64,000 bases of DNA from an uncultured Tangfeifania sp. (GCA_964358545.1 CAYHQN010000007.1:3148-67147); one strand, 5' to 3'; positions 55,107 through 64,000 are shown, counted from the first letter of the stretch. Notes: generated by a model not told the origin, from the letters alone. Translations and numbers: made by a program.

Positions 55107-57947
55107 TCAGGGCATTCTGTTCAACCCCTCCCATCTGACTTTCCAGCTCCCATCTTTGGGAATCCCCGGATTCTCTGTTTCACAGCCGTCGTATCCGGCG
55201 CACATCATGGCTACTGCAGCCAGAATTCCGCCGTTTCCCGGTAGGTAAAGTCTCAGCCTTTTATCCTGGTAATTGTGTCCGTTGGCCAGATAGGTATTGG
55301 TAGGGATACTCATAAACAGCGCATCGATGGCCTTGTCGGGACGTCCCAAACGGGTCGCCGTCATCGCTACCAGCGGAAAATCCCAGCCCCAGGTCTTTTT
55401 CCAGTTCCAGTGGTCCCAGACGTAATCAAAAGTACTGTTCATGGTCTTTTTATTGACCACCCTCGACTCGGGCATGAATCCCAGCGCACCCAATACGGCA
55501 GGATGGTCAGAGTGTAAAGGCAGATTGGTATATGAATCCGGAGCGCTCTCAGCCGAAAGGTAAAGGCCATTCTTTTGTGCCAGAACAGCCAGCTTTTCGA
55601 TGATCTCGTCCCATTGACGGTTGCGGCTCATGCCCAACCGGACCCGCCACTGTTGCGCAACACTCAATCCCCAGTGCCAGTATGCCAGTTCAAAAGGGGA
55701 ATTGTAGGTTGCCTCGGGGCTTAACGATTCCTGGGCAGGAATGATTCCAACCAAATTGTAGCGGTTCTTATCAGGATCCCAGGTGGCAAACGAGGCCATA
55801 AAATCGGCAGTCTGAAAAACAAGTTCCTTGTATTTTTCCAGCATATCGTTGGTGTGGTAGTTCCGGTAACAGAGCTCTGCAAAATAGATGATGTGCGGTT
55901 GTTGCCAGATGAGAAATGAACCAACCGATGAGGGTGCCTCAGTGCCTGTTGTATCTGTCATTTTCATCCATCTGGCGCCTTTATACCCTTGCCTCTGAGC
56001 GATTTTTTGGGCCATGGGCAATACGTCCCTGTACCAACCGAGGCTCTTTTCCAGCAAATCGATCCGGTTCCAGAGGGCAAAATGGGCCGCATGCCACCAA
56101 TGCATCTCAAGGTGAAATTTTCCGTACCAGCTGTTGTAGGTCAGTCCGGTTTCCTGCGGCGGAACGCTTCCCGCACACTGAATGGCCATCAGGTATTGCG
56201 AAAGGACGACCCTGCGCTCCAGTTCGGTCGCCCTTGGATCGCTGCTGCCTGAAAAATCAATGGCACCTCCACGATTCCAGAAGTAACTCCATTTTGCCTC
56301 ATTTGCGCGAGTCGTTTGAACAAAATCGGCCAGTTGAAGTGATCTCTTTTCTTTGGAAAAAAGGCAGCTGATTTCAATGCTTTGACCTTTTGGAGATAGC
56401 TCAAAGTGATGTGCCTGCTTCTCTTCCATCCTGGCTGAACCTTTCCAGTCGACTTTTGTACAATAGCTGGTTGAATCCAACCGACGTTCGAAAATAATTG
56501 AATTTTCGTTAACTGTGATGGGAGTGGTTTTGTGCTTGTCCGGACTTTTCCAGTCGCAGCCACTATCCATGTGATTCCCGCTAGGGTAGGGGAAATCAAA
56601 TTTTATCTTCAATCTTCCGGCATCGATCAGTGGAGAGGTGATTTTGGAGGAGAGCATGTCAAGATCCGGATGGCAGATGGTGGTCACCTCTACCGGAATA
56701 CCTTCAATCTTGAAAGTGCTGTGAATCTCCCCTTTCCAGAGGTTGAGCTCCTCTTTGAGATCAGTTATGTCCGTGATGGCGATGGCTGAACCATCTCTCT
56801 TTTTGATTCCCAAGCCGATGATTCCCAGGTGCAAACGGTGCGCATTGGCCCTAAAATAGTTGCCGGCTTCCACCCCCCGTTGTGGACTCTTCAACTGAAC
56901 AGAATAGGACTCCGGCCTACCGTGAAAATTGTAATCTTTCAGGCTCTCTTCGGGTTTAAAATTGCGGGTATTGGGGAAATCATGCCATCCCCACTGTGAT
57001 TGCGTACCAAGAGGAATGCCTCCTTCATAGACGCCAGGAAAGGTCTGCAGTCCGGTAGCATCTGCGGTGAAAGCGAAATTGCCATTGCCTACCGTTAGGG
57101 ATGCAAGGGTATCAACCTTCTCAAATTTGACATTGTGCCTGTTTACCAACGCTTTCCTGTCGATGTTACCATGAAAGTTCGTTTTGAAAGAGACGTTCTT
57201 CTTTAAATATTTGATGAAAGGCAATTTTTGATTTTTGATCTCCTGAACAGCGAGTTCCGCAACTTTGAAGGCACCCAAAGGATTGAGGTGGGTATTGTCG
57301 GTACGACCATAAGGGTCCTGTTTGCTCACCCCCGGTTCAAAGAGCATGTACAGCGCTTTTGACCCTTCAACTCCCATTTCGTTGATGAGTTTTTCTGTGG
57401 ATACATTGAGGTCTATGACAGGAACCTCTAACTCTTTTCCAACCTCTCTGGTCACTGCAGGATATTCACCAAGTGTATTGGTTGCTTTTCCATCCGCATC
57501 AAACGACCGCCTCACGATGGAGGTGAACAAGATTGGGTTTGCCCCTTTTTCGCGGCTTTCCCCGATATATCTGACCAGGTTTTCGCGATAAGTGGTATGC
57601 GGATCCGTTTTACGTGCAACATCGGGTTTGGAATCGTTATGACCGAATTGGATAAAAACATAATCGCCTTTTTGTACCACATCCAAAACAGCCTGCCACA
57701 ACCCCTCATCGCGAAAGCTTTTAGAACTTCTTCCGTTTTTTGCACGATTGTCTATGACAAGTTGGTTTTCATCGAAAAATGCAGGAAGTACCTGACACCA
57801 GCCCCGTTCTGGATTGCTCCTTGTCGTATCCTTGTTGGCCATGGTGGAATCACCGATGGTGAAGATGGTGATCTTCTTCTTTGCAGGTGAAAATGAGGTA
57901 AGTGTTGCAAAAAGTAGAATTAGGGAAAGAAATCTAATTTTTAACAT
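55107..57947 (-). CDS. Fusion of an SGNH/GDSL esterase (CE12-like) with a large glycoside-hydrolase-like C-terminal region
   Basis: A signal peptide is present. The SGNH blocks are 'FTIGDSTMAN', 'NGRSS', 'FIQFGHNDS' and 'DNTHLNPLGA'. About 690 further residues are rich in Trp/aromatic repeats suggestive of an (alpha/alpha)6 GH fold. Family not assigned. Confidence 0.55.
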   Translation of the reverse strand: MLKIRFLSLILLFATLTSFSPAKKKITIFTIGDSTMANKDTTRSNPERGWCQVLPAFFDENQLVIDNRAKNGRSSKSFRDEGLWQAVLDVVQKGDYVFIQFGHNDSKPDVARKTDPHTTYRENLVRYIGESREKGANPILFTSIVRRSFDADGKATNTLGEYPAVTREVGKELEVPVIDLNVSTEKLINEMGVEGSKALYMLFEPGVSKQDPYGRTDNTHLNPLGAFKVAELAVQEIKNQKLPFIKYLKKNVSFKTNFHGNIDRKALVNRHNVKFEKVDTLASLTVGNGNFAFTADATGLQTFPGVYEGGIPLGTQSQWGWHDFPNTRNFKPEESLKDYNFHGRPESYSVQLKSPQRGVEAGNYFRANAHRLHLGIIGLGIKKRDGSAIAITDITDLKEELNLWKGEIHSTFKIEGIPVEVTTICHPDLDMLSSKITSPLIDAGRLKIKFDFPYPSGNHMDSGCDWKSPDKHKTTPITVNENSIIFERRLDSTSYCTKVDWKGSARMEEKQAHHFELSPKGQSIEISCLFSKEKRSLQLADFVQTTRANEAKWSYFWNRGGAIDFSGSSDPRATELERRVVLSQYLMAIQCAGSVPPQETGLTYNSWYGKFHLEMHWWHAAHFALWNRIDLLEKSLGWYRDVLPMAQKIAQRQGYKGARWMKMTDTTGTEAPSSVGSFLIWQQPHIIYFAELCYRNYHTNDMLEKYKELVFQTADFMASFATWDPDKNRYNLVGIIPAQESLSPEATYNSPFELAYWHWGLSVAQQWRVRLGMSRNRQWDEIIEKLAVLAQKNGLYLSAESAPDSYTNLPLHSDHPAVLGALGFMPESRVVNKKTMNSTFDYVWDHWNWKKTWGWDFPLVAMTATRLGRPDKAIDALFMSIPTNTYLANGHNYQDKRLRLYLPGNGGILAAVAMMCAGYDGCETENPGIPKDGSWKVRWEGLNRMP

Positions 57948-58007
57948 ATGGTTAGTGTGTAAAATATCTTTGTTTGACGTCTAATTTACCCATTTTCAAT
58001 TGTTTCA

Positions 58008-58058
58008 CCATTCCGTCCGAAACAAACCATGAACATCTTTAGTTATGCTACCGCGGAC
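58008..58058. repeat. Bipartite conserved element, copy 2 (CCATTCCGTCCGAAA - 22 nt - ATGCTACCGCGGAC)
   Basis: Both half-motifs match 39269..39320 exactly. It sits about 60 nt upstream of the minus-strand start at 57947. It is followed at 58088..58125 by two copies of 'gtgcaactctgtg'. Confidence 0.6.
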
Positions 58059-58135
58059 ATCCGGCCATACCTTGTGGGCACCACCTCTGTGCAACTCTGT
58101 GTTCCTCCGTGCAACTCTGTGTAATTTTTCCTCGT

Positions 58136-59710
58136 TTAGAACTCCGACGTAAAATGAAATTTGATCTTCGGGAAATCCCTTTGCGCCATGTCCAGAATAA
58201 AAGTTGAGTCTGCCAAAAACACATCCCTGCCTTGCTTGTCGGTTGCCATTTTGTTATATTTCCGTTTCTTGAAATCATCCAAAACTGCTTTGTCTTCACT
58301 CTCGATCCAACAGGCTTTGTAGAGTGAGATGGACTCCCAGCGACATTTGGCGTTGTACTCATGTTCCAACCGGTATTCGATAACCTCGAACTGCAGTGCC
58401 CCTACGGTTCCGATGATCTTGCGCCCGTTGAGCTGACTGATAAACAATTGTGCTACACCTTCATCCATTAACTGATCTACCCCTTTGGCCAATTGCTTGG
58501 ATCGCATGGGATCAGCATTTTCAATGTAACGGAAAATCTCAGGGGAAAAAGATGGAATTCCTTTGTAATGGAGGATTTCACCCTCGGTTATTGTGTCACC
58601 AATGACAAAATTTCCGGTATCGGGCAGACCAATGATATCGCCCGGAAAGGCATACTCAATCACCTCTTTTTTATCGGCCATAAAGGCTGTTGGACTGGAA
58701 TATTTAAAGGTCTTTGCCAGACGGATGTGCCTGTAATTTTTGTTGCGTTCGAACATTCCCGAACAGATTTTGACGAAAGCGATCCTGCTACGGTGGTTTG
58801 GATCTATGTTCGCATGAATTTTGAAGACAAATCCGGTAAATGTCTCTTCCATAGGATCAACCAATCTCTCTTCGGATTTCTTTGGTCGGGGAGAGGGTGC
58901 GAGTTTGACAAATGTATCCAGAAGTTCCCTTACGCCAAAATTGTACAGGGCGCTTCCAAAAAAAACAGGGGCCAATTCACCGGCCAGGTAGGCATGGTGG
59001 TCAAATACAGGATAGATTCCTTCAACCATCTCAAGGTCCTCTCGAAGGACAATGGCATCATTTCCAATTAATCGATCCAGCGCCGGATCGTTCAGGTTTT
59101 CGAAACTGATTCCCTTTTCAATGTCTGTGATACTCGGATTAAAGAGGCTCAGGCTACTGTCATAAATATTGTACACCCCTTTGAATTCGGGACCATTGTT
59201 GATGGGCCAGCTCAAAGGCCTGACCTTGATCATCAATTGCTTTTCGATGTCGTCCAGCAAGTCAAAAGTATCACCCGAAGGACGGTCCATTTTGTTGATG
59301 AAGACGATAACCGGAGTCTTGCGCATCCGGCAGATATTCATCAGCTTCTCTGTCTGAGGTTCCACACCTTTGGCAGCATCAATAACGATGATCACACTGT
59401 CGACGGCCGTCAGGGTACGAAAAGTATCCTCCTGAAAATCCTGGTGACCAGGAGTATCCAAAATATTGATTTTGTAACCGCTGTACTCGAAACCCATCAC
59501 AGAAGTGGCAACGGAAATTCCGCGCTGCCGCTCAATCTCCATGAAGTCGGAGGTAGCCCCCTTTTTTATTTTATTGCTTTTTACCGCCCCGGCAACGTGG
59601 ATGGCGCCGCCAAAAAGCAGCAGTTTTTCTGTAAGTGTTGTTTTTCCCGCATCAGGGTGACTGACAATACCAAACGTTCTCCGACGCAGAATCTCTTCTT
59701 TAAACCCCAT
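58136..59710 (-). CDS. prfC: Peptide chain release factor 3 (GTPase)
   Basis: It has '[25 protein letters not shown]', 'DTPGHQDF' and 'NKMDR'. The 524-aa length is typical of RF3. Confidence 0.95.
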
Positions 59711-59763
59711 TTTATCAATTTAGGGTGCAAATTTAATTTAAAATAGTTGAAAGACGACAAATG

Positions 59764-59984
59764 TCGATTTTGGATTTTGGATTTTCGATTTTGGAATAGG
59801 GAGAAGTAGCGTAAACAGCCTGGTGCTTTGGGGCTTACAGGTAATTGCCAATAGCTTGAAGCTATAGAATGAAAATCAGGATACCTTCCTATTCCTGTCT
59901 CTCAAAAAAAAGAGGCTGAAAGTAGCAATTCACTTTCAGCCTCTTAATCGATGCGTTAGTCCAAAATCGAAAATCGAAAATTGA
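59764..59984. repeat. 221-bp MITE-like unit bounded by GATTTTGG-type inverted repeats
   Basis: 59771..59794 is 'tggattttggattttcgattttgg'. The reverse complement of 59961..59984 is 'tcaattttcgattttcgattttgg'. That is 21/24 matches by hand count. There is no ORF inside, and the interior holds the terminator listed next. Confidence 0.5.
59904..59944 (-). terminator. Rho-independent terminator (minus strand)
   Basis: A 12-bp perfect stem (gaggctgaaagt / actttcagcctc) has an 8-nt loop. On the minus strand it is followed by T8. Confidence 0.65.
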
Positions 59985-59989
59985 TTTAT

Positions 59990-60310
59990 GCTTCGATTAT
60001 CACTTTGCAACTTATTTGGTTACCTATGCAATTTGCTCAAGGTCATATGCAATCTTTTTGGTTACCTGTGCAATTTGCTCAAGGTCATAAGCAATCTTTT
60101 TAGTTACCTATGCAATTTACTCAAGGTCATAAGTAATCTTTTTGGTTACCTATGCAATTTGCTCAAGGTCATAAGCACTTTTTTGGGTTGCCTATATAAT
60201 TTGCTCAAGGTCGTTTGCAATTTATTTGATGGCCTATGCAAGTTTATTGAAGGTCATTGCATCAATCAGGCAGGCAATTGCAACTTAATTGGTGTACTTG
60301 ATAAATTTTA
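59990..60310. repeat. Tandem array of a 42-bp unit (about 7-8 copies, degenerate at both ends); each unit is two 21-bp half-units centred on ATGCAAT
   Basis: Units start at 60018, 60060, 60102, 60144, 60186 and 60228. The consensus is 'ggttacctatgcaatttgctcaaggtcatatgcaatcttttt'. There are no unique spacers. Confidence 0.9.
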
Positions 60311-61031
60311 AGCCGGTTACTTGTTTGAATTGGGGGCTTGTTGCTCCAAATACCGACCTAAGGTAAATTTTTACGTCGCTTGCCACGTCAACAAGGCCTG
60401 TATCATCTTTGTACATGGTATCGTTGCGTGCTATACGGGCATTGTTTAAAGGTATTTCGGCGTTAATTACGGCGAGGTTCTTCGCTTTTAGATCCGCATA
60501 CAATGCTGTGAGGGCAGCAATCTTTAAATCGGCTTCGTTTGGGACATATTGAGAAACAGATGATAATAATTGAATGAGTTTGTCGAGGTTATCCAGTCGA
60601 TTATCGTAACCTCTTTGTGAGGCAGAGATTTCAACAATTTCTTTGCCGGTTTCGGTTGCAGCGTTTTTTTCTTCTTCTGTCTTTTTAGGGGTAGCCCGGC
60701 GACCTTGCAACTTGCGGACAATGGTTTGTGCCGATTGAATTACTTCTTTAGTTGTATCAGAAGCTTTTAGCGCATTGTTGACACGGGTAATCAACTTGTC
60801 GAATGGTTTAAATGCGGTAACCCTTGCGGTAACTGCATTTTTATAGGCAGGCATAAGGGCATTCATCGTAGTCAAACTGTTTTTGGCGGCAGTTGCCTGT
60901 GCTTGCATGGCAGCAATTATTAAAGCTGCTTTTGAAGGGTTGTAGCCGGTACCGAATGAAGTGCAGGTAAGAATAAGTTTATCATAATTAACTGCATTAC
61001 GGATGTGACCCTGGTCGGATGAACTTGTCAT
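60285..61031 (-). CDS. Hypothetical all-helical protein (248 aa)
   Basis: The ORF is clean with coding-like composition. It is Ala/Lys/Thr-rich with predicted long helices and a charged central 'RRATPKKTEEEKNAATETGKE' linker. I recognise no family. Confidence 0.5.
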   Translation of the reverse strand: MTSSSDQGHIRNAVNYDKLILTCTSFGTGYNPSKAALIIAAMQAQATAAKNSLTTMNALMPAYKNAVTARVTAFKPFDKLITRVNNALKASDTTKEVIQSAQTIVRKLQGRRATPKKTEEEKNAATETGKEIVEISASQRGYDNRLDNLDKLIQLLSSVSQYVPNEADLKIAALTALYADLKAKNLAVINAEIPLNNARIARNDTMYKDDTGLVDVASDVKIYLRSVFGATSPQFKQVTGLKFIKYTN

Positions 61032-61685
61032 AATGTTAAATTTAAGGGTTGATAATCAGATAAATAACTCACTTAAATATACAAAACATTTTTGAAAAAC
61101 AGTAATAATTTGGTGAAAATTATTCCCGAAGATTAACTGAAATGATTCGATCTGCCAGCGAATCTGTCAAGGGGCTTCATAGTTTACGAAAATCGCACGT
61201 ACAGTGAAGCGAGCTGTAATTAGTTTCAGGATTCGTCTTACGCAATGGATTTTGATTGATCGCCCAAAAATGGATAAAGCAAAAACCTGGCTGAGATTTA
61301 GATGTATTTCAATTCTTACAAATTCTGAGAATAACAAAACATAATTTTAGCCTGAAAAAACAGTGCATTTTTAACATAAGCTGAGGGTTGCTTCGTCCCC
61401 GCTGGCGCGGAGTTGCAATCGCTGATGGATTAAAAAATGCCGATACCAACCGCATCACCTGGGTTCGCCCTGCACAATTTTCCTGCCTAATGCTTTGGTG
61501 TTTAAATTTTATTAGGTAAGTTTATGACCATCTAACACGCAACAAACCTGCCTCTTTTCTCCAAAATTCAGCGTATAGGCGCATGTTTGTAGCTTATAAA
61601 CGACGTTGGCAACAATTTTTAGGACAGTGCGTAGCTAAACTAAATTAACAAGAAATAAGCAAATGAGAATTAAAACAATTATTGA

Positions 61686-62087
61686 ATGAAAATAGAAATT
61701 GACATACCTGATGACAAGCTTCAAAACTTAAGTCCTACTGCAAAGACTGAATTAACTAAGGTAGCAAAGAAATATACCGAGGAAGTTTTAGACGAAGCAA
61801 GTCGCATTGAAGAGAGTCGAAGGACCACCAATCCAAATCCTGAAGTTACAGCAGCAATTATTAACGATGCTGTCGTTTTTGCAAAAAACTATGGTATAAG
61901 GAAACGTAAACCGAAGAAGTTAATTTTTATGCAGGTTTTAGCTTTTTTATCTGCCACACTTACAGGAGGTTTATTTGACACTGAAAAATTCAAAGACATC
62001 AGCTTTGTGATTCTTTTTTTAGTAGTCTTTCTTTTATCCATAGTTTCAGCCGTTTATTTAATCCTAAATGACAACAACAATGATTAA
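61686..62087 (+). CDS. Small 2TM membrane protein (133 aa), paralogous to the N-terminal third of the next gene
   Basis: An N-terminal helical segment of about 75 aa ('LSPTAKTELTKVAKKYTEEVLDEASRIEE') is followed by a basic patch 'RKRKPKK'. Then come two hydrophobic helices ('LIFMQVLAFLSATLTGGLF', 'ISFVILFLVVFLLSIVSAVYLIL'). Confidence 0.5.
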   Translation: MKIEIDIPDDKLQNLSPTAKTELTKVAKKYTEEVLDEASRIEESRRTTNPNPEVTAAIINDAVVFAKNYGIRKRKPKKLIFMQVLAFLSATLTGGLFDTEKFKDISFVILFLVVFLLSIVSAVYLILNDNNND

Positions 62088-63057
62088 CGAAAAAATATAC
62101 TCCAAACTTACCCCATCAGCGCAAGAGGCTCTTGACAAGATGGTATCAGAATATCGTGATTCACTTTTAGAGAAAGCATTTCTATTGGCACAGGAGAGAG
62201 AAACAGCCAGTAAAGAAATTTCCCTACGAGATATTTTGGAAACGAATCAGCTTAAGCACAGTGGTATAGGCATAGAAAAATCTGAAAATCGTAAAAAAAG
62301 AATGATTTCACTTTTAGCCTTAAGTGGAGCAGTTTATTCTGTTTTAGGTATATTAATTTATCTATTCCAAAATAAAAAGTTTGCAGTTGAAACCGATCTT
62401 GGGTTAATAATCGCCATCACAGGTATAATAATTTCACTAATAAGTTTTCTTTATGGACAACTTATTTCTAAACGATATTCATTTACACAAACCACAACAG
62501 CAACATCTATTTATTCACAATCAAACGATTACGACATAGTAAAAAGATGGCAAATAATTGAAACACTTGCAAAAAAATTTATGACTGAAGCAGATCAAAA
62601 AGAAGCGAAAAATAATTCAGTAGGCTTTTTAATCCGGTTCCTAAGTCATAAAGTTGCAAAAGATGAAAAGGAATTTCTCAAAATCAGAGAATTATTGCAA
62701 ATGCGAAATAAAATTCTTCACCAGCAATACAATATGAGTGACAATGAAAGAAAGGAATTTTTAGAATTGGCAGACGACTTAATTGAACGTTTGGAGAGTT
62801 CCAAAATTGAAAGTAATCCACAAGAAAAAACGCTTAAGGTCAATAACGCCAAGTATGGATCGCCGAAAAATTCATTTGATATGACTAAGGAATTAAATCA
62901 ACTTATAAATAATAATCGTCTTGAATTCGTACTAAACAATGAAATTGTTGGCGATCCTGATCCTGGTGTAATAAAAACATTAGAAATATCTTATGAAATT
63001 AATGGTGAAAGACAGACAAGAACATATAATGAAGGTGCAAAAGTTGTCATTCAGTAA
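62068..63057 (+). CDS. 2TM protein with a HEPN-like RNxxxH motif and a C-terminal beta-rich GDPxPG domain (329 aa)
   Basis: It overlaps the previous gene by 20 nt. Its N-terminal layout matches that of 61686 ('LTPSAQEALDKMVSEYRDSLLEKA', basic 'NRKKR', TM helices 'MISLLALSGAVYSVLGILIYLF' and 'LGLIIAITGIIISLISFLYGQLI'). The helical region contains 'LQMRNKILHQ' at nt 62704..62721. The C-terminal 'VGDPDPGVIKTLEISYEINGE' follows. Confidence 0.45.
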   Translation: MTTTMINEKIYSKLTPSAQEALDKMVSEYRDSLLEKAFLLAQERETASKEISLRDILETNQLKHSGIGIEKSENRKKRMISLLALSGAVYSVLGILIYLFQNKKFAVETDLGLIIAITGIIISLISFLYGQLISKRYSFTQTTTATSIYSQSNDYDIVKRWQIIETLAKKFMTEADQKEAKNNSVGFLIRFLSHKVAKDEKEFLKIRELLQMRNKILHQQYNMSDNERKEFLELADDLIERLESSKIESNPQEKTLKVNNAKYGSPKNSFDMTKELNQLINNNRLEFVLNNEIVGDPDPGVIKTLEISYEINGERQTRTYNEGAKVVIQ

Positions 63058-63089
63058 CTTTCTTAAAGTCAAAAAAACTGTTGCCAACA

Positions 63090-63199
63090 GCGCATTTGCA
63101 AAAGCGGGGTTTCTGTGGTTAAATAACTTTTATCGCACGTTTTAATATTTTGAAGTATATAAAATTCACCGCTCGCAATCCCCGCCTTCGCAAATGCGC
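63090..63199. repeat. Inverted repeat (20-nt arms, 70-nt spacer) immediately upstream of the nucleotidyltransferase gene
   Basis: 63090..63109 'gcgcatttgcaaaagcgggg' pairs with 63180..63199 'ccccgccttcgcaaatgcgc'. That is 18/20 complementary by hand count. Confidence 0.6.
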
Positions 63200-63256
63200 A
63201 AAACGTTAGCGGTCATTGTATGAGCGACAGCAATAGAACAATATAAACTGAAAAAG

Positions 63257-64000
63257 ATGAGTGTAGCAAATTGGTTTGACACCTTTAATCAAGATTTAAG
63301 AATGTCTAAAGACACAGTTGACAACATTTCTTATCGCTATAAAAGAATTACGAAACAGTTGAATAAAGATTTTTATAATTCGGAGTCAGACATTTATCAT
63401 AGTTTATATGTGGGATCTTATGGTCGTGGAACAGATATTGTTGTAAGTGATATAGATATAATTTTTCAACTTCCATATTCCGAGTATGTTAAATATGATG
63501 CTTATACGGGAAACGGTCAATCATCATTACTACAAGCTGTAAAGACTTCAATTGAGAAAACCTACAAATCAAGTATGAAAGCTGACGGACAAGTAATTGT
63601 AATAAGTTTTACGGACGGAATTGTTTTTGAATTAGTCCCTGCATTTATTAATAATGATGATTCATATACATTTCCAGACACTAATGACGGTGGCAGTTGG
63701 AAAAAAACAAATCCAAGACCTGAAATCGCCGAAATCAATTCAAAAAATATACTTTGGAATAAAAATTTAAAACGACTTTGTAGGATGGCCCGTGCTTGGA
63801 AATATAAATGGGATGTTCCAATAGGTGGCTTATTAATAGATACATTGGCATACAACTTCATGGCAGACTGCGGGTACAAAGACAAATCTTTTCTTTACTA
63901 CGATTTCATTACCCGAGACTTTTTTAAATATCTATCTGAACAAAAATCTGAACAAAGTTATTGGTTAAGTCCTGGTGCGAGACAATGCGTCTGGAGAAAA
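63257..64000 (+). CDS. SMODS/CD-NTase-like nucleotidyltransferase, 3'-truncated by the window edge
   Basis: This ORF is not in the supplied track because it has no stop inside the window. I translated it by hand from the ATG at 63257 and it is open to nt 64000. It has the Pol-beta NTase signature 'GSYGRGTDIVVSDIDII' (GS..x..DxD), the third acidic strand 'ISFTDGIVFELVPAF', and then 'GGSWKKTNPRPE', as in CBASS cyclases. Confidence 0.7.
   Translation, partial: MSVANWFDTFNQDLRMSKDTVDNISYRYKRITKQLNKDFYNSESDIYHSLYVGSYGRGTDIVVSDIDIIFQLPYSEYVKYDAYTGNGQSSLLQAVKTSIEKTYKSSMKADGQVIVISFTDGIVFELVPAFINNDDSYTFPDTNDGGSWKKTNPRPEIAEINSKNILWNKNLKRLCRMARAWKYKWDVPIGGLLIDTLAYNFMADCGYKDKSFLYYDFITRDFFKYLSEQKSEQSYWLSPGARQCVWRK

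What the first reader, a model, noticed from the sequence alone, without database searches (positions are those of the whole stretch)
61605..64000. Candidate nucleotide-signalling defence locus: two paralogous 2TM proteins (one HEPN-like) next to a SMODS/CD-NTase-like gene
Seen in the sequence:
- A nucleotidyltransferase with 'GSYGRGTDIVVSDIDII' ... 'FELVPAF' ... 'WKKTNP' starts at 63257 and runs off the window.
- Upstream on the same strand are two overlapping genes with the same N-terminal layout: a helical segment, a basic patch, then two TM helices.
- The longer one adds a helical domain with 'RNKILH' and a beta-rich 'GDPDPGVIKTLEISY' tail.

Established knowledge:
- SMODS/CD-NTase enzymes make nucleotide second messengers in CBASS-type anti-phage systems.
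- They are frequently paired with 2TM (SLATT-type) membrane effectors.
- Rx4-6H, often RNxxxH, is the HEPN RNase signature.

Inference: this architecture combines a duplicated 2TM module, a HEPN-like domain, a GDPxPG beta domain and a cyclase. I do not recognise it as a described CBASS type. The region is A+T-rich and sits beside repeats, which is consistent with an accessory or defence island. No recognisable nucleotide-sensor domain (SAVED, STING, CARF) is visible in the two upstream proteins.
Basis: partly seen in the sequence, partly recalled or inferred. Interest (0 to 1): 0.75.

Follow-up and report, generated by a model that had tools for sequence, protein, structure and literature searches.

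The report
Histone-fold membrane HEPN gene pair beside CBASS
The two membrane-protein genes are not part of the neighbouring nucleotide-signalling (CBASS) system: they form a self-contained, uncharacterised mobile gene pair, two histone-fold membrane proteins of which one carries an RNase-type (HEPN) domain, and an ordinary complete CBASS sits in the next mobile cassette.

Summary
The described sequence features are all present. The interpretation as one new CBASS type is not supported.

- **The cyclase is an ordinary CBASS enzyme.** It matches SMODS (E 1e-52) and a PADLOC CBASS cyclase (E 1e-135). An identical contig shows it is followed, with overlap, by its own SLATT_4 2TM effector. That makes a complete type I CBASS.
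- **The upstream genes are a separate unit.** gA (133 aa) and gB (325 aa) are adjacent in 36 of 36 other loci. None of those loci has SMODS or SLATT_4.
- **A recombination site lies between them.** A 130-nt attC-like site separates gB from the cyclase. gA-gB behaves as an integron-type cassette in many Bacteroidota arrays.
- **gA and gB are paralogues.** Each has a cytoplasmic histone-fold domain, a basic patch and a 2TM hairpin. All 50 listed Foldseek hits are histone-fold proteins.
- **gB adds a HEPN domain.** Its R-N-x3-H motif has an invariant R, with N and H in at least 90% of 125 diverse relatives. Here gB also has a DUF3395-like tail.
- **A natural gA-gB fusion exists.**

My best reading is a membrane-anchored HEPN toxin or abortive-infection module controlled through a histone-fold heterodimer. 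That function is inferred, not tested.

The parts
61605..61614 (+). 5' boundary core of the gA-gB cassette (G|TTGGCAACA, an R'-type core site)
   Evidence: It is the exact reverse complement of TGTTGCCAAC, which lies just after the gB stop (inverted repeat I13). The same upstream/downstream complementarity, with a different sequence in each locus, is seen in 11 of 32 loci against 40 of 992 mismatched pairs. No folded attC lies directly upstream in the window.
61686..62087 (+). gA: 133-aa inner-membrane protein with a histone-fold domain (aa 1-70), a basic patch and a 2TM hairpin (aa 79-130)
   Evidence: ORF. There are 61 homologues of nearly constant length, about 133 aa. AF2 model of aa 1-76: pLDDT 86, pTM 0.70. 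All 50 listed Foldseek PDB hits (the top 50 of 100 matches) are histone-fold proteins. The best PDB profile hit is H2B. Pfam TFIID-31kDa scores E 0.0076. TM segments and charges.
62080..63057 (+). gB: 325-aa paralogue of gA (histone fold aa 1-61, 2TM aa 74-130) extended by a HEPN domain and a beta-rich tail. An alternative start is at 62068.
   Evidence: ORF. Database proteins 100% identical over the aligned region (99% of the 329-aa query) are 325 aa long. The 8-nt overlap with gA is seen at the window's 62080 start and in many of the other loci. hhalign of gA against gB gives probability 96%. AF2 model pLDDT 77.
62521..62817 (+). HEPN domain of gB (aa ~148-246). The R-N-K-I-L-H motif is at 62704-62721.
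   Evidence: R209 and H214 are invariant in 54 close homologues. In 125 diverse relatives the R is invariant and N and H are at least 90% conserved. HEPN-clan Pfam hits: RiboL-PSP in 30 of 54 and 41 of 125, HepT-like 13 and 22, Swt1 5 and 12, DUF4145 3 and 8, MAE_28990 7. The model shows a helical bundle over aa 151-245.
62827..63054 (+). C-terminal beta-rich domain of gB (DUF3395 / DnaJ-like_C11_C-like, GDPxPG motif). It is present only in the ~325-aa subfamily.
   Evidence: Pfam PF11875 scores E 0.0012 here, and matches 21 of 54 relatives with a best E of 5.4e-7. Beta strands lie at aa 253-323 in the model. The domain is absent from the ~245-aa majority form.
63082..63211 (+). attC-like recombination site (130 nt) that ends the gA-gB cassette. 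Layout: R'' TGCCAAC, L'' 63090-63109, L' 63180-63199, spacer AAAAC, R' GTTAGCG at 63205-63211.
   Evidence: Inverted repeat I10. The bottom strand folds better than the top strand (-25.7 kcal/mol, z -3.2, against -20.8, z -2.0). It belongs to a family of 126-136-nt sites with covarying stems.
63257..64000 (+). 5' 248 codons of a 290-aa CBASS CD-NTase (SMODS). This is the first gene of the next cassette, which starts at TTAGCGG (63206).
   Evidence: Pfam SMODS E 1.4e-52 and PADLOC cyclase E 1.2e-117. The full-length protein in L001 matches PDLC00786 end to end (E 1.9e-135). It is followed by SLATT_4 (E 6.7e-73; PADLOC CBASS 2TM effector E 2.4e-79) and then a second attC whose R'' CCGCTAAC is complementary to the cassette start.

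Best explanation
The end of the window is a short array of integron-type gene cassettes. The cassettes are independent units.

**Cassette 1: gA-gB, a self-contained two-gene module**
- Shown: the two genes overlap (by 8 nt, ATGATTAA, at the window's 62080 start; by 4 nt, or separated by 1-4 nt, in some remote relatives) and are always found together.
- Shown: they are paralogues. Each has a cytoplasmic histone-fold domain, a basic juxtamembrane patch and a two-helix membrane hairpin.
- Shown: gB continues in the cytoplasm with a HEPN domain. Its R-N-x3-H motif is the most conserved feature of the whole family.
- Inferred: the two histone folds pair in the usual handshake, giving a gA:gB heterodimer with four TM helices.
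- Inferred: gA acts as an effector-less decoy or regulator. It keeps the HEPN domain of gB from forming the face-to-face dimer that HEPN RNases need for activity.
- Inferred: a trigger such as phage infection, membrane or envelope perturbation, or loss of gA releases or clusters gB. The HEPN domains then dimerise and cleave RNA, and growth stops. This would be abortive-infection or toxin-antitoxin behaviour.
- Inferred: the optional C-terminal domain (DUF3395-like here, BspA-type LRR elsewhere, usually absent) is an accessory sensor or adaptor.

**Cassette 2: a canonical type I CBASS**
It has a SMODS cyclase plus a SLATT_4 2TM effector. It needs nothing from gA-gB.

**Cassette 3: a vapBC-like remnant.**
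For: **Independence from CBASS**
- L001 is 100% identical to window 56879-64000. It shows SMODS (290 aa) overlapped by SLATT_4.
- gA lies directly upstream of gB in 36 of 36 non-redundant loci that have upstream DNA. No third gene is conserved. SMODS and SLATT_4 were found only in the three contigs carrying the same gB protein as the window (L001-L003).
- The pairing also holds in remote relatives.

**Cassette nature**
- attC-like sites bound the unit.
- A scan found 36 such sites in the loci (30 co-oriented with gA-gB) against 2 in shuffled sequence. Arrays reach 9 sites.
- The stems covary: score 0.542 against 0.199 in shuffles (0 of 500 as high), with 16 of 21 pairs compensatory.

**Paralogy.** hhalign probability 96%, E 2.6e-9.

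**Histone fold**
- The AF2 model has pLDDT 86. All 50 listed Foldseek hits (the top 50 of 100 matches) are histone-fold proteins. The best is HMfA, rmsd 1.6 A, probability 0.91.
- Weak hits to three histone-fold Pfam families and to H2B point the same way.

**Physical coupling**
- A natural single-ORF gA-gB fusion exists (L044).
- The genes overlap by 4-8 nt, or are separated by only 1-4 nt, in the loci where called gene coordinates are available.

**HEPN.** The R of R-N-x3-H is invariant, with N and H at least 90% conserved. All soluble-domain Pfam hits across 179 relatives fall in the HEPN clan.

**Topology.** Basic patches precede TM1, and an even number of TM helices puts both the histone fold and the HEPN domain in the cytoplasm.

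**Conflict-system context**
- The unit sits in an A+T-rich island next to CBASS and a PIN toxin.
- Neighbours elsewhere include OLD/Gabija/Septu-type ATPases, reverse transcriptases, type I R-M methylases, a STAND NTPase, and plasmid or ICE genes.
- The family is large: 1036 clusters at 50% identity with E<=1e-3.
Against: - No experiment bears on toxicity, RNase activity, heterodimer formation or phage defence.
- All HEPN and histone-fold profile hits are below the Pfam gathering cut-offs.
- Foldseek E-values for the 76-aa histone-fold model are individually non-significant (0.7-3.7).
- A Foldseek search with the whole gB model returned no HEPN structure among its top hits (pTM 0.35).
- The heterodimer could not be modelled with these tools.
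- gA-gB match nothing in PADLOC or PHROGs. tblastn with gB found nothing in sequenced plasmids or phages.
- Enrichment of defence genes among the neighbours is modest and was only counted in aggregate.
- No integron integrase was found in the window or in any fetched locus. The cassette interpretation therefore rests on the sites alone.
Confidence: 0.55

Rival explanations
1. gA, gB and the cyclase (plus whatever follows) form one new CBASS variant, in which the 2TM/HEPN proteins are effectors or regulators driven by the cyclic nucleotide.
For: The genes share a strand, lie within 200 nt of each other and sit in one A+T-rich island. 2TM effectors are typical of type I CBASS. gA gave a weak hit to a PADLOC CBASS '4TM' effector profile (E 0.0012).
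Against: The cyclase has its own overlapping SLATT_4 effector. None of the 35 other non-redundant gA-gB loci carries SMODS or SLATT_4. An attC-like site separates the units. gA and gB have no nucleotide-sensor domain.
Confidence: 0.04
2. A pore model, like Csx28 or SLATT. The gA-gB complex kills or arrests the cell by permeabilising the membrane. The HEPN-like domain would serve structurally, in oligomerisation or RNA sensing, and not as a nuclease.
For: Csx28 is a TM protein with a divergent HEPN fold. It forms an octameric pore and depolarises the membrane without HEPN catalysis (bioRxiv 10.1101/2021.11.02.466367). The TM region of gB gives weak hits to the Pfam '8xMP' octameric membrane protein family in 41 of 54 relatives, and also to the CyanoTRADDas 2TM domain and SLATT_5. 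The membrane hairpins are conserved in both proteins, including a shared LF..KF loop.
Against: gB keeps the canonical catalytic R-N-x3-H motif, with the R invariant over about 20-40% sequence identity. Csx28's motif, by contrast, is divergent and re-purposed. The membrane-family hits are weak and fall in low-information hydrophobic segments.
Confidence: 0.2
3. A pure addiction (toxin-antitoxin) cassette. It would stabilise cassette arrays or mobile elements and have no role in phage defence. gA would be the labile antitoxin and gB the HEPN toxin.
For: The gene order is small gene first, with overlapping stop and start. HEPN toxins are an established TA class (HepT/MNT; established knowledge). 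TA cassettes are common in chromosomal integron arrays (established knowledge), and a PIN toxin remnant lies two cassettes away. The pair also occurs on a plasmid-like contig and in an ICE-like context.
Against: gA has no DNA-binding or enzymatic antitoxin domain, and it is more conserved than gB. A membrane location is unusual for type II TA systems. This rival overlaps mechanistically with the best explanation and differs only in biological role.
Confidence: 0.15

Closest known systems
Type I CBASS with a 2TM effector (SMODS CD-NTase + SLATT_4; Burroughs et al. 2015, Millman et al. 2020, from my own knowledge)
   Same: The window's cyclase and the gene after it (in L001) match CBASS cyclase and 2TM-effector profiles end to end. 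This part of the locus is an ordinary member of the class.
   Different: gA and gB are not part of it. They are not co-conserved with it, they lie in a separate cassette, and they give no significant SLATT match.
HEPN toxins and abortive-infection RNases (HepT/MNT, RiboL-PSP-HEPN, Swt1-like, ApeA, AbiD/F-type)
   Same: gB has a conserved Rx4-6H (R-N-x3-H) motif followed by one C-terminal helix. Its profile similarity is confined to HEPN-clan families. The gene pair is small and overlapping, and it is mobile.
   Different: No MNT or other known antitoxin is present. The HEPN domain is tethered to the membrane through a 2TM hairpin and preceded by a histone fold. The partner is a truncated paralogue of the toxin itself.
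Csx28 (type VI-B CRISPR accessory protein, TM helix + divergent HEPN, octameric pore)
   Same: It is a membrane-anchored protein with a HEPN-type four-helix bundle in a defence context. It also comes mostly from Bacteroidota (the taxonomy is from my own knowledge).
   Different: Csx28 has one TM helix, no histone fold and no paralogous partner. It depends on Cas13b, and its HEPN motif is divergent and non-catalytic. gB keeps the canonical motif and is not linked to CRISPR.
'Transmembrane histones' of prokaryotes (Schwab et al. 2024, PMC11390915)
   Same: These are histone-fold proteins fused to TM segments that lack conventional DNA-binding residues. The histone folds of gA and gB are likewise acidic.
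   Different: That category is described only as a structural class (about 18 UniProt entries, modelled as homodimers). No HEPN domain, paired paralogue or cassette context is mentioned.
Integron gene cassettes, CALINs, and defence cassettes in integrons (IntegronFinder 2.0, PMC9024848; bioRxiv 10.1101/2024.07.02.601719)
   Same: Shared features: AAC...GTT-bounded imperfect hairpins of uniform length; a cassette start complementary to the cassette's own R''; co-oriented short ORFs; better folding of the bottom strand; and group II intron RTs in the arrays.
   Different: No IntI was found within reach. The sites are long (about 130 nt), and attC1 has no extrahelical base in its L box. Integrons are reported as very rare in Bacteroidetes.

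Membership tests
CBASS (gA + gB + cyclase as one system) | A CD-NTase/SMODS cyclase is present | tested here: met
   PF18144 E 1.4e-52. PADLOC cyclase PDLC00786 E 1.9e-135 over the full length.
CBASS (gA + gB + cyclase as one system) | The candidate effector genes are co-conserved with the cyclase across genomes | tested here: not met
   None of the 35 other non-redundant gA-gB loci has a SMODS or SLATT_4 homologue (phmmer E<=1e-3). The cyclase's own effector is the SLATT_4 gene downstream.
CBASS (gA + gB + cyclase as one system) | The effector carries a nucleotide-sensing domain or belongs to a known CBASS effector family | tested here: not met
   No SAVED, STING, CARF or Cap family hit. The only signal is a weak hit to a '4TM' effector profile (E 0.0012) for gA.
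HEPN superfamily (gB aa ~148-246) | A conserved Rx4-6H motif | tested here: met
   R209 and H214 are invariant in 54 homologues. R is invariant and N and H are at least 90% conserved in 125 diverse relatives.
HEPN superfamily (gB aa ~148-246) | Profile similarity to HEPN-clan families | tested here: met
   RiboL-PSP in 41 of 125 relatives (best E 2e-6), HepT-like 22, Swt1 12, DUF4145 8, MAE_28990 7, HEPN 2. All are below the gathering cut-offs. No non-HEPN soluble family recurs among close relatives, apart from the N-terminal histone-fold families and the DUF3395-like tail.
HEPN superfamily (gB aa ~148-246) | A four-helix up-down bundle matching solved HEPN structures | tested here: inconclusive
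   The AF2 model has helices at 151-167, 170-192, 196-215 and 221-245 with pLDDT about 80-88. A whole-protein Foldseek search gave no HEPN hit in the top 50 (pTM 0.35).
HEPN superfamily (gB aa ~148-246) | Metal-independent RNase activity | not testable with these tools
   Requires biochemistry.
Histone fold (N-termini of gA and gB) | Alpha1-L1-alpha2-L2-alpha3 helix-strand-helix architecture matching solved histone folds | tested here: met
   The AF2 model of gA 1-76 has pLDDT 86 with helices at 9-12, 17-44 and 56-69. All 50 listed Foldseek PDB hits (the top 50 of 100 matches) are histone-fold proteins (TM 0.35-0.65, mostly 0.5-0.65; HMfA rmsd 1.6 A). Each E-value is 0.7-3.7. Supporting weak hits: TAF9, NF-YB/HMF, TAF12 and H2B. 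Alpha1 is very short.
Histone fold (N-termini of gA and gB) | Handshake dimerisation | not testable with these tools
   No multimer prediction is available. Indirect support comes from strict co-occurrence, overlapping or closely abutting genes, and a natural gA-gB fusion that places two histone folds in tandem.
Histone fold (N-termini of gA and gB) | A basic DNA-binding surface, as in chromatin histones | tested here: not met
   Mean net charge of the histone-fold domain is -5.4 in the gA family and -3.3 in the gB family. A single-sequence comparison with HMfB gave no support (probability 4%).
SLATT 2TM effectors (gA and gB membrane module) | A match to a SLATT family profile and association with SMODS or SLOG genes | tested here: not met
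   Only 3 of 54 relatives hit SLATT_5 weakly (best E 0.0015). There is no association with SMODS outside this strain.
Integron gene cassette (gA-gB unit) | A 3' attC site with R''(..AAC)/L''...L'/R'(GTT..) and paired stems | tested here: met
   attC1 is at 63082-63211. In a family of 24 aligned sites, 84% of cells are paired and the covariation score is 0.542 against 0.199 in shuffles. The sites were pre-selected by stem energy, which inflates the pairing percentage.
Integron gene cassette (gA-gB unit) | The 5' end of the cassette (TTnnnn) is complementary to its own R'', as expected from G|TT crossover and circularisation | tested here: met
   Exact complementarity of at least 7 nt in 11 of 32 loci, with locus-specific sequences, against 40 of 992 mismatched pairs. 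The same holds for the CBASS cassette (TTAGCGG / CCGCTAA).
Integron gene cassette (gA-gB unit) | An integron integrase (IntI) and attI adjacent to the array | tested here: not met
The only hit in the loci is a Xer-like recombinase next to an IS91 transposase, below the TIGR02249 cut-off. The arrays may extend beyond the DNA fetched.

The most novel reading that the evidence does not exclude
gA-gB would define a new class of conflict system. A histone-fold handshake between a full-length membrane HEPN RNase and its truncated paralogue would act as the on/off switch. These systems, together with CBASS and TA modules, would circulate in Bacteroidota as cassettes of an integron-like platform. That platform's ~130-nt attC sites are common in the phylum although canonical integrons are considered nearly absent there, which would imply an unrecognised reservoir of cassettes or an unrecognised recombinase.
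Probability: 0.3. Interest if true: 0.8.

Novelty: new variant of a known kind. Interest (0 to 1): 0.6.

Why it matters
- **Annotation.** Separating the two units prevents a false 'new CBASS type' from entering the literature or annotation.
- **A large uncharacterised family.** The gA-gB module has more than 1000 clusters at 50% identity and is absent from PADLOC.
- **An unreported combination.** It joins a bacterial histone fold used as a membrane-proximal dimerisation device, a decoy paralogue, and a canonical HEPN RNase. A full-text search found no paper mentioning HEPN, histone fold and transmembrane together.
- **If it is a defence or addiction module.** It would give the orphan class of 'transmembrane histones' a function. 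It would also provide a simple, testable model for how HEPN dimerisation is gated.
- **Cassette arrays in Bacteroidota.** The attC-type arrays seen around it suggest that integron-like gene banks carrying defence systems are more common in this phylum than current surveys indicate.

Tried and rejected
- **Exact look-up of the 329-aa ORF.** Not on record. The databases use the 62080 start, giving 325 aa.
- **Structure and profile searches with gB.** Whole-protein Foldseek returned only weak COMMD-like and other hits (E>=0.036). I disregarded them because pTM is 0.35. A profile search of gB against PDB sequences found nothing meaningful.
- Probability 4%, so uninformative.
- **Reading the GC-rich palindromes after SLATT_4 and inside the PIN gene as MITEs.** I first read them this way. 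I replaced this with an attC interpretation once the R'/R'' logic and the family-wide covariation were seen. The third copy interrupts the PIN ORF beside an N gap and may be a scaffolding artefact.
- **Search for an integron integrase.** Negative. The one candidate (L020) is Xer-like and sits next to an IS91 transposase.
- **A folded attC directly upstream of gA in the window.** Not supported (z about 0).
- **Other database searches.**
  - tblastn of gB against PLSDB plasmids and INPHARED phages: no match.
  - PHROGs: nothing meaningful.
  - Rfam: nothing.
- **Literature on Pfam '8xMP'.** Nothing found, so those weak hits remain uninterpreted.
- **My first attC scan.** It required R''/R' complementarity within one site and failed. 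In an array the R' is chimeric with the next cassette.

Full report
**1.

- gA is at 61686-62087 (133 aa).
- gB is at 62068-63057. Its likely start is 62080, which matches database proteins of 325 aa and gives an 8-nt overlap (ATGATTAA) with gA.
- A nucleotidyltransferase ORF starts at 63257 and runs off the window.
- GC falls to 0.31-0.34 over these genes, from 0.44-0.50 in the flanking prfC region.

**2. The cyclase belongs to an ordinary, complete CBASS**

- The fragment is SMODS (PF18144, E 1.4e-52) and a PADLOC CBASS cyclase.
- A metagenomic contig, L001, is 100% identical to window 56879-64000 and extends it by 2.7 kb.
- In L001 the cyclase is 290 aa and matches PDLC00786 end to end (E 1.9e-135).
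- Its 3' end is overlapped by a 193-aa SLATT_4 protein (PF18186, E 6.7e-73; PADLOC CBASS 2TM effector, E 2.4e-79).
- Cyclase plus 2TM effector is the canonical minimal type I CBASS. It needs no further component.

**3. gA-gB is a separate, strictly conserved pair**

- gB has 104 homologues and gA has 61.
- I fetched 35 further non-redundant loci from genomes and metagenomes.
- In every locus with upstream DNA (36 of 36, counting the window's own contig L001), gA lies directly upstream of gB.
- No other gene is conserved around the pair. SMODS and SLATT_4 homologues occur only in the three contigs carrying the same gB protein as the window (L001-L003; L001 is 100% identical to the window).
- More remote relatives keep the pairing.

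**4. The two units sit in different mobile cassettes**

The window's own sites:
- The sequence G|TTGGCAACA lies 75 nt upstream of gA (61605-61614). It is the exact reverse complement of TGTTGCCAAC, which lies just after the gB stop.
- TGTTGCCAAC opens a 130-nt imperfect hairpin at 63082-63211. Its layout is R'' TGCCAAC, a 20-bp L stem, the spacer AAAAC, and R' GTTAGCG.
- The bottom strand of this hairpin folds better than the top strand.
- The next unit starts at TTAGCGG and carries SMODS-SLATT_4. It ends in a hairpin whose R'' is CCGCTAAC, the complement of its own start.

This is the logic of integron cassettes, with crossover at G|TT. Evidence across the other loci:
- The core upstream of gA and the core downstream of gB are exactly complementary in 11 of 32 loci, with a different sequence in each. 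The figure for mismatched pairs is 40 of 992.
- A scan for AAC...GTT-bounded hairpins found 36 sites in the loci, 30 of them co-oriented with gA-gB, against 2 in shuffled sequence.
- Most of the sites found directly downstream of gB are 126-136 nt long. They form arrays of up to 9 sites. In several loci a site lies on both sides of gA-gB.
- In an alignment of 24 sites, 16 of 21 stem pairs show compensatory changes. The covariation score is 0.542 against 0.199 in shuffles (0 of 500 as high), and 0.10-0.20 when the partners are slid.
- The arrays hold co-oriented short ORFs of miscellaneous or unknown function and a group II intron RT.

Caveats:
- No integron integrase was found in the window or in any locus.
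- The sites were pre-selected by stem energy.
- Integrons are reported to be very rare in Bacteroidetes (PMC9024848).
- I therefore call the sites attC-like and the arrays CALIN-like.

**5. Anatomy of gA and gB**

Shared module:
- The two proteins are paralogues across the N-terminal domain and both TM helices (hhalign probability 96%, E 2.6e-9).
- Each has two hydrophobic segments preceded by a strongly basic patch. This places the N-terminal domain, and for gB the C-terminal part, in the cytoplasm.

N-terminal domain is a histone fold:
- The AF2 model of gA 1-76 has pLDDT 86 and pTM 0.70.
- All 50 listed Foldseek PDB hits (the top 50 of 100 matches) are histone-fold proteins: HMfA, H4, H2B, TAFs and NF-Y. 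TM-scores are 0.35-0.65, mostly 0.5-0.65.
- Independent weak sequence hits go to TAF9, NF-YB/HMF, TAF12 and H2B.
- The domains are acidic, so they are probably dimerisation modules and not DNA binders. This fits the 'transmembrane histone' category of Schwab et al. 2024.

gB-specific domains:
- gB adds a helical domain whose R-N-x3-H motif is the most conserved element of the family. R is invariant, and N and H are at least 90% conserved, in 125 relatives of 20-40% identity.
- The recurrent soluble-domain Pfam hits are to HEPN-clan families. Among close relatives, the only others are the N-terminal histone-fold families and the DUF3395-like tail listed below.
- The tail is variable. It is absent in the ~245-aa majority, DUF3395-like in this lineage, and a BspA-type LRR in one branch.

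Family size and fusion:
- A natural single-ORF fusion of gA-like and gB-like halves exists (L044, GC 0.60).
- The family has 1036 clusters at 50% identity with E<=1e-3.

**6. Most likely mechanism**

- Shown: a strictly co-occurring, overlapping or closely abutting pair of paralogous membrane proteins with cytoplasmic histone folds, one of them carrying a canonical HEPN domain. The pair is mobile as a cassette and occurs in islands with CBASS, TA genes, OLD/Gabija-type ATPases, R-M and STAND genes, and on plasmid- or ICE-like contigs.
- Inferred: the histone folds form a handshake heterodimer. gA acts as an effector-less decoy that prevents the face-to-face HEPN dimer required for catalysis. 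An infection or envelope signal, or loss of gA, lets the HEPN domains of gB pair and cleave RNA, which arrests growth.
- Whether the biological role is abortive infection or addiction cannot be decided here.
- A Csx28-like pore mechanism is the main mechanistic rival. The preserved catalytic motif argues against it.

**7. Comparison with known systems, and novelty**

- The CBASS part is already known.
- gA-gB works like a HEPN toxin or Abi module, but it is not a member of any described system. It has no PADLOC or PHROGs match. A full-text search found no paper combining HEPN, histone fold and transmembrane.
- I rate it a new variant of a known kind.
- The attC-like arrays in Bacteroidota are a second, unexpected observation.

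**8. Verdict**

- Independence of gA-gB from the CBASS: about 0.9.
- The proposed HEPN/histone-fold mechanism: about 0.55.
- Interest: 0.6.

Noticed in passing
L013 154-18990; L033 70-4859; L014 728-5989; L036; L016; L017; L021 (and window 63082-63211): Arrays of ~130-nt attC-like hairpins separate co-oriented short ORFs in many Bacteroidota genomes and MAGs. L013 has at least 9 sites in 19 kb. No integron integrase lies within reach. Current surveys report integrons as nearly absent from Bacteroidetes.
   Followed up: partly
L001 8492-8595 (about 1.4 kb beyond the window end): A third copy of the attC2-type palindrome cuts the PIN (vapC-like) ORF at 62 of 120 profile positions. It contains a run of N. 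This is either an insertion into the toxin gene or a scaffolding artefact at a repeated site.
   Followed up: no
L044 276-1370: A single 364-aa ORF from a GC 0.60 organism fuses a gA-like half (aa 13-84) to a gB-like half (aa 107-338). This places two histone folds in tandem. The gA membrane hairpin appears reduced.
   Followed up: partly
L045 6001-7608, L046, L047: A gB variant of 535 aa carries a BspA-type leucine-rich-repeat (LRR_5) C-terminus in place of the DUF3395-like tail. It still follows a 133-aa gA. A conserved 699-aa gene of unknown function lies downstream in all three contigs.
   Followed up: no
window 60006-60261: A 42-nt tandem repeat (6.1 copies, 84% matches) lies between prfC and the 3' end of the 248-aa gene. 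It overlaps a repetitive mechanical ORF at 59988-60311.
   Followed up: no
window 60285-61031 (- strand): A 248-aa predicted helical protein has no hit in Pfam, NCBIfam, PADLOC or PHROGs. It lies between prfC and the cassette array, where an integrase might be expected, but it is not a tyrosine recombinase.
   Followed up: partly
L013 5913-7160; three further neighbour ORFs: Reverse transcriptases, two of them with a group II intron maturase domain, occur near the attC-like arrays. This recalls the attC-targeting group IIC introns of integrons.
   Followed up: no
gB aa 67-124 (window 62278-62451): The 2TM region gives weak but recurrent hits to Pfam PF24838 '8xMP, octameric membrane protein family' in 41 of 54 relatives. 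I could find no literature on that family.
   Followed up: partly
L027 1989-2147: A second gA-like ORF starts about 630 nt downstream of a complete gA-gB pair, at the contig end. This suggests tandem copies of the cassette.
   Followed up: no
L020 899-3000 (- strand): An IS91-family transposase and a Xer-like tyrosine recombinase lie immediately downstream of a gB gene in a Chitinophagaceae MAG. This is a possible alternative route of mobilisation.
   Followed up: partly
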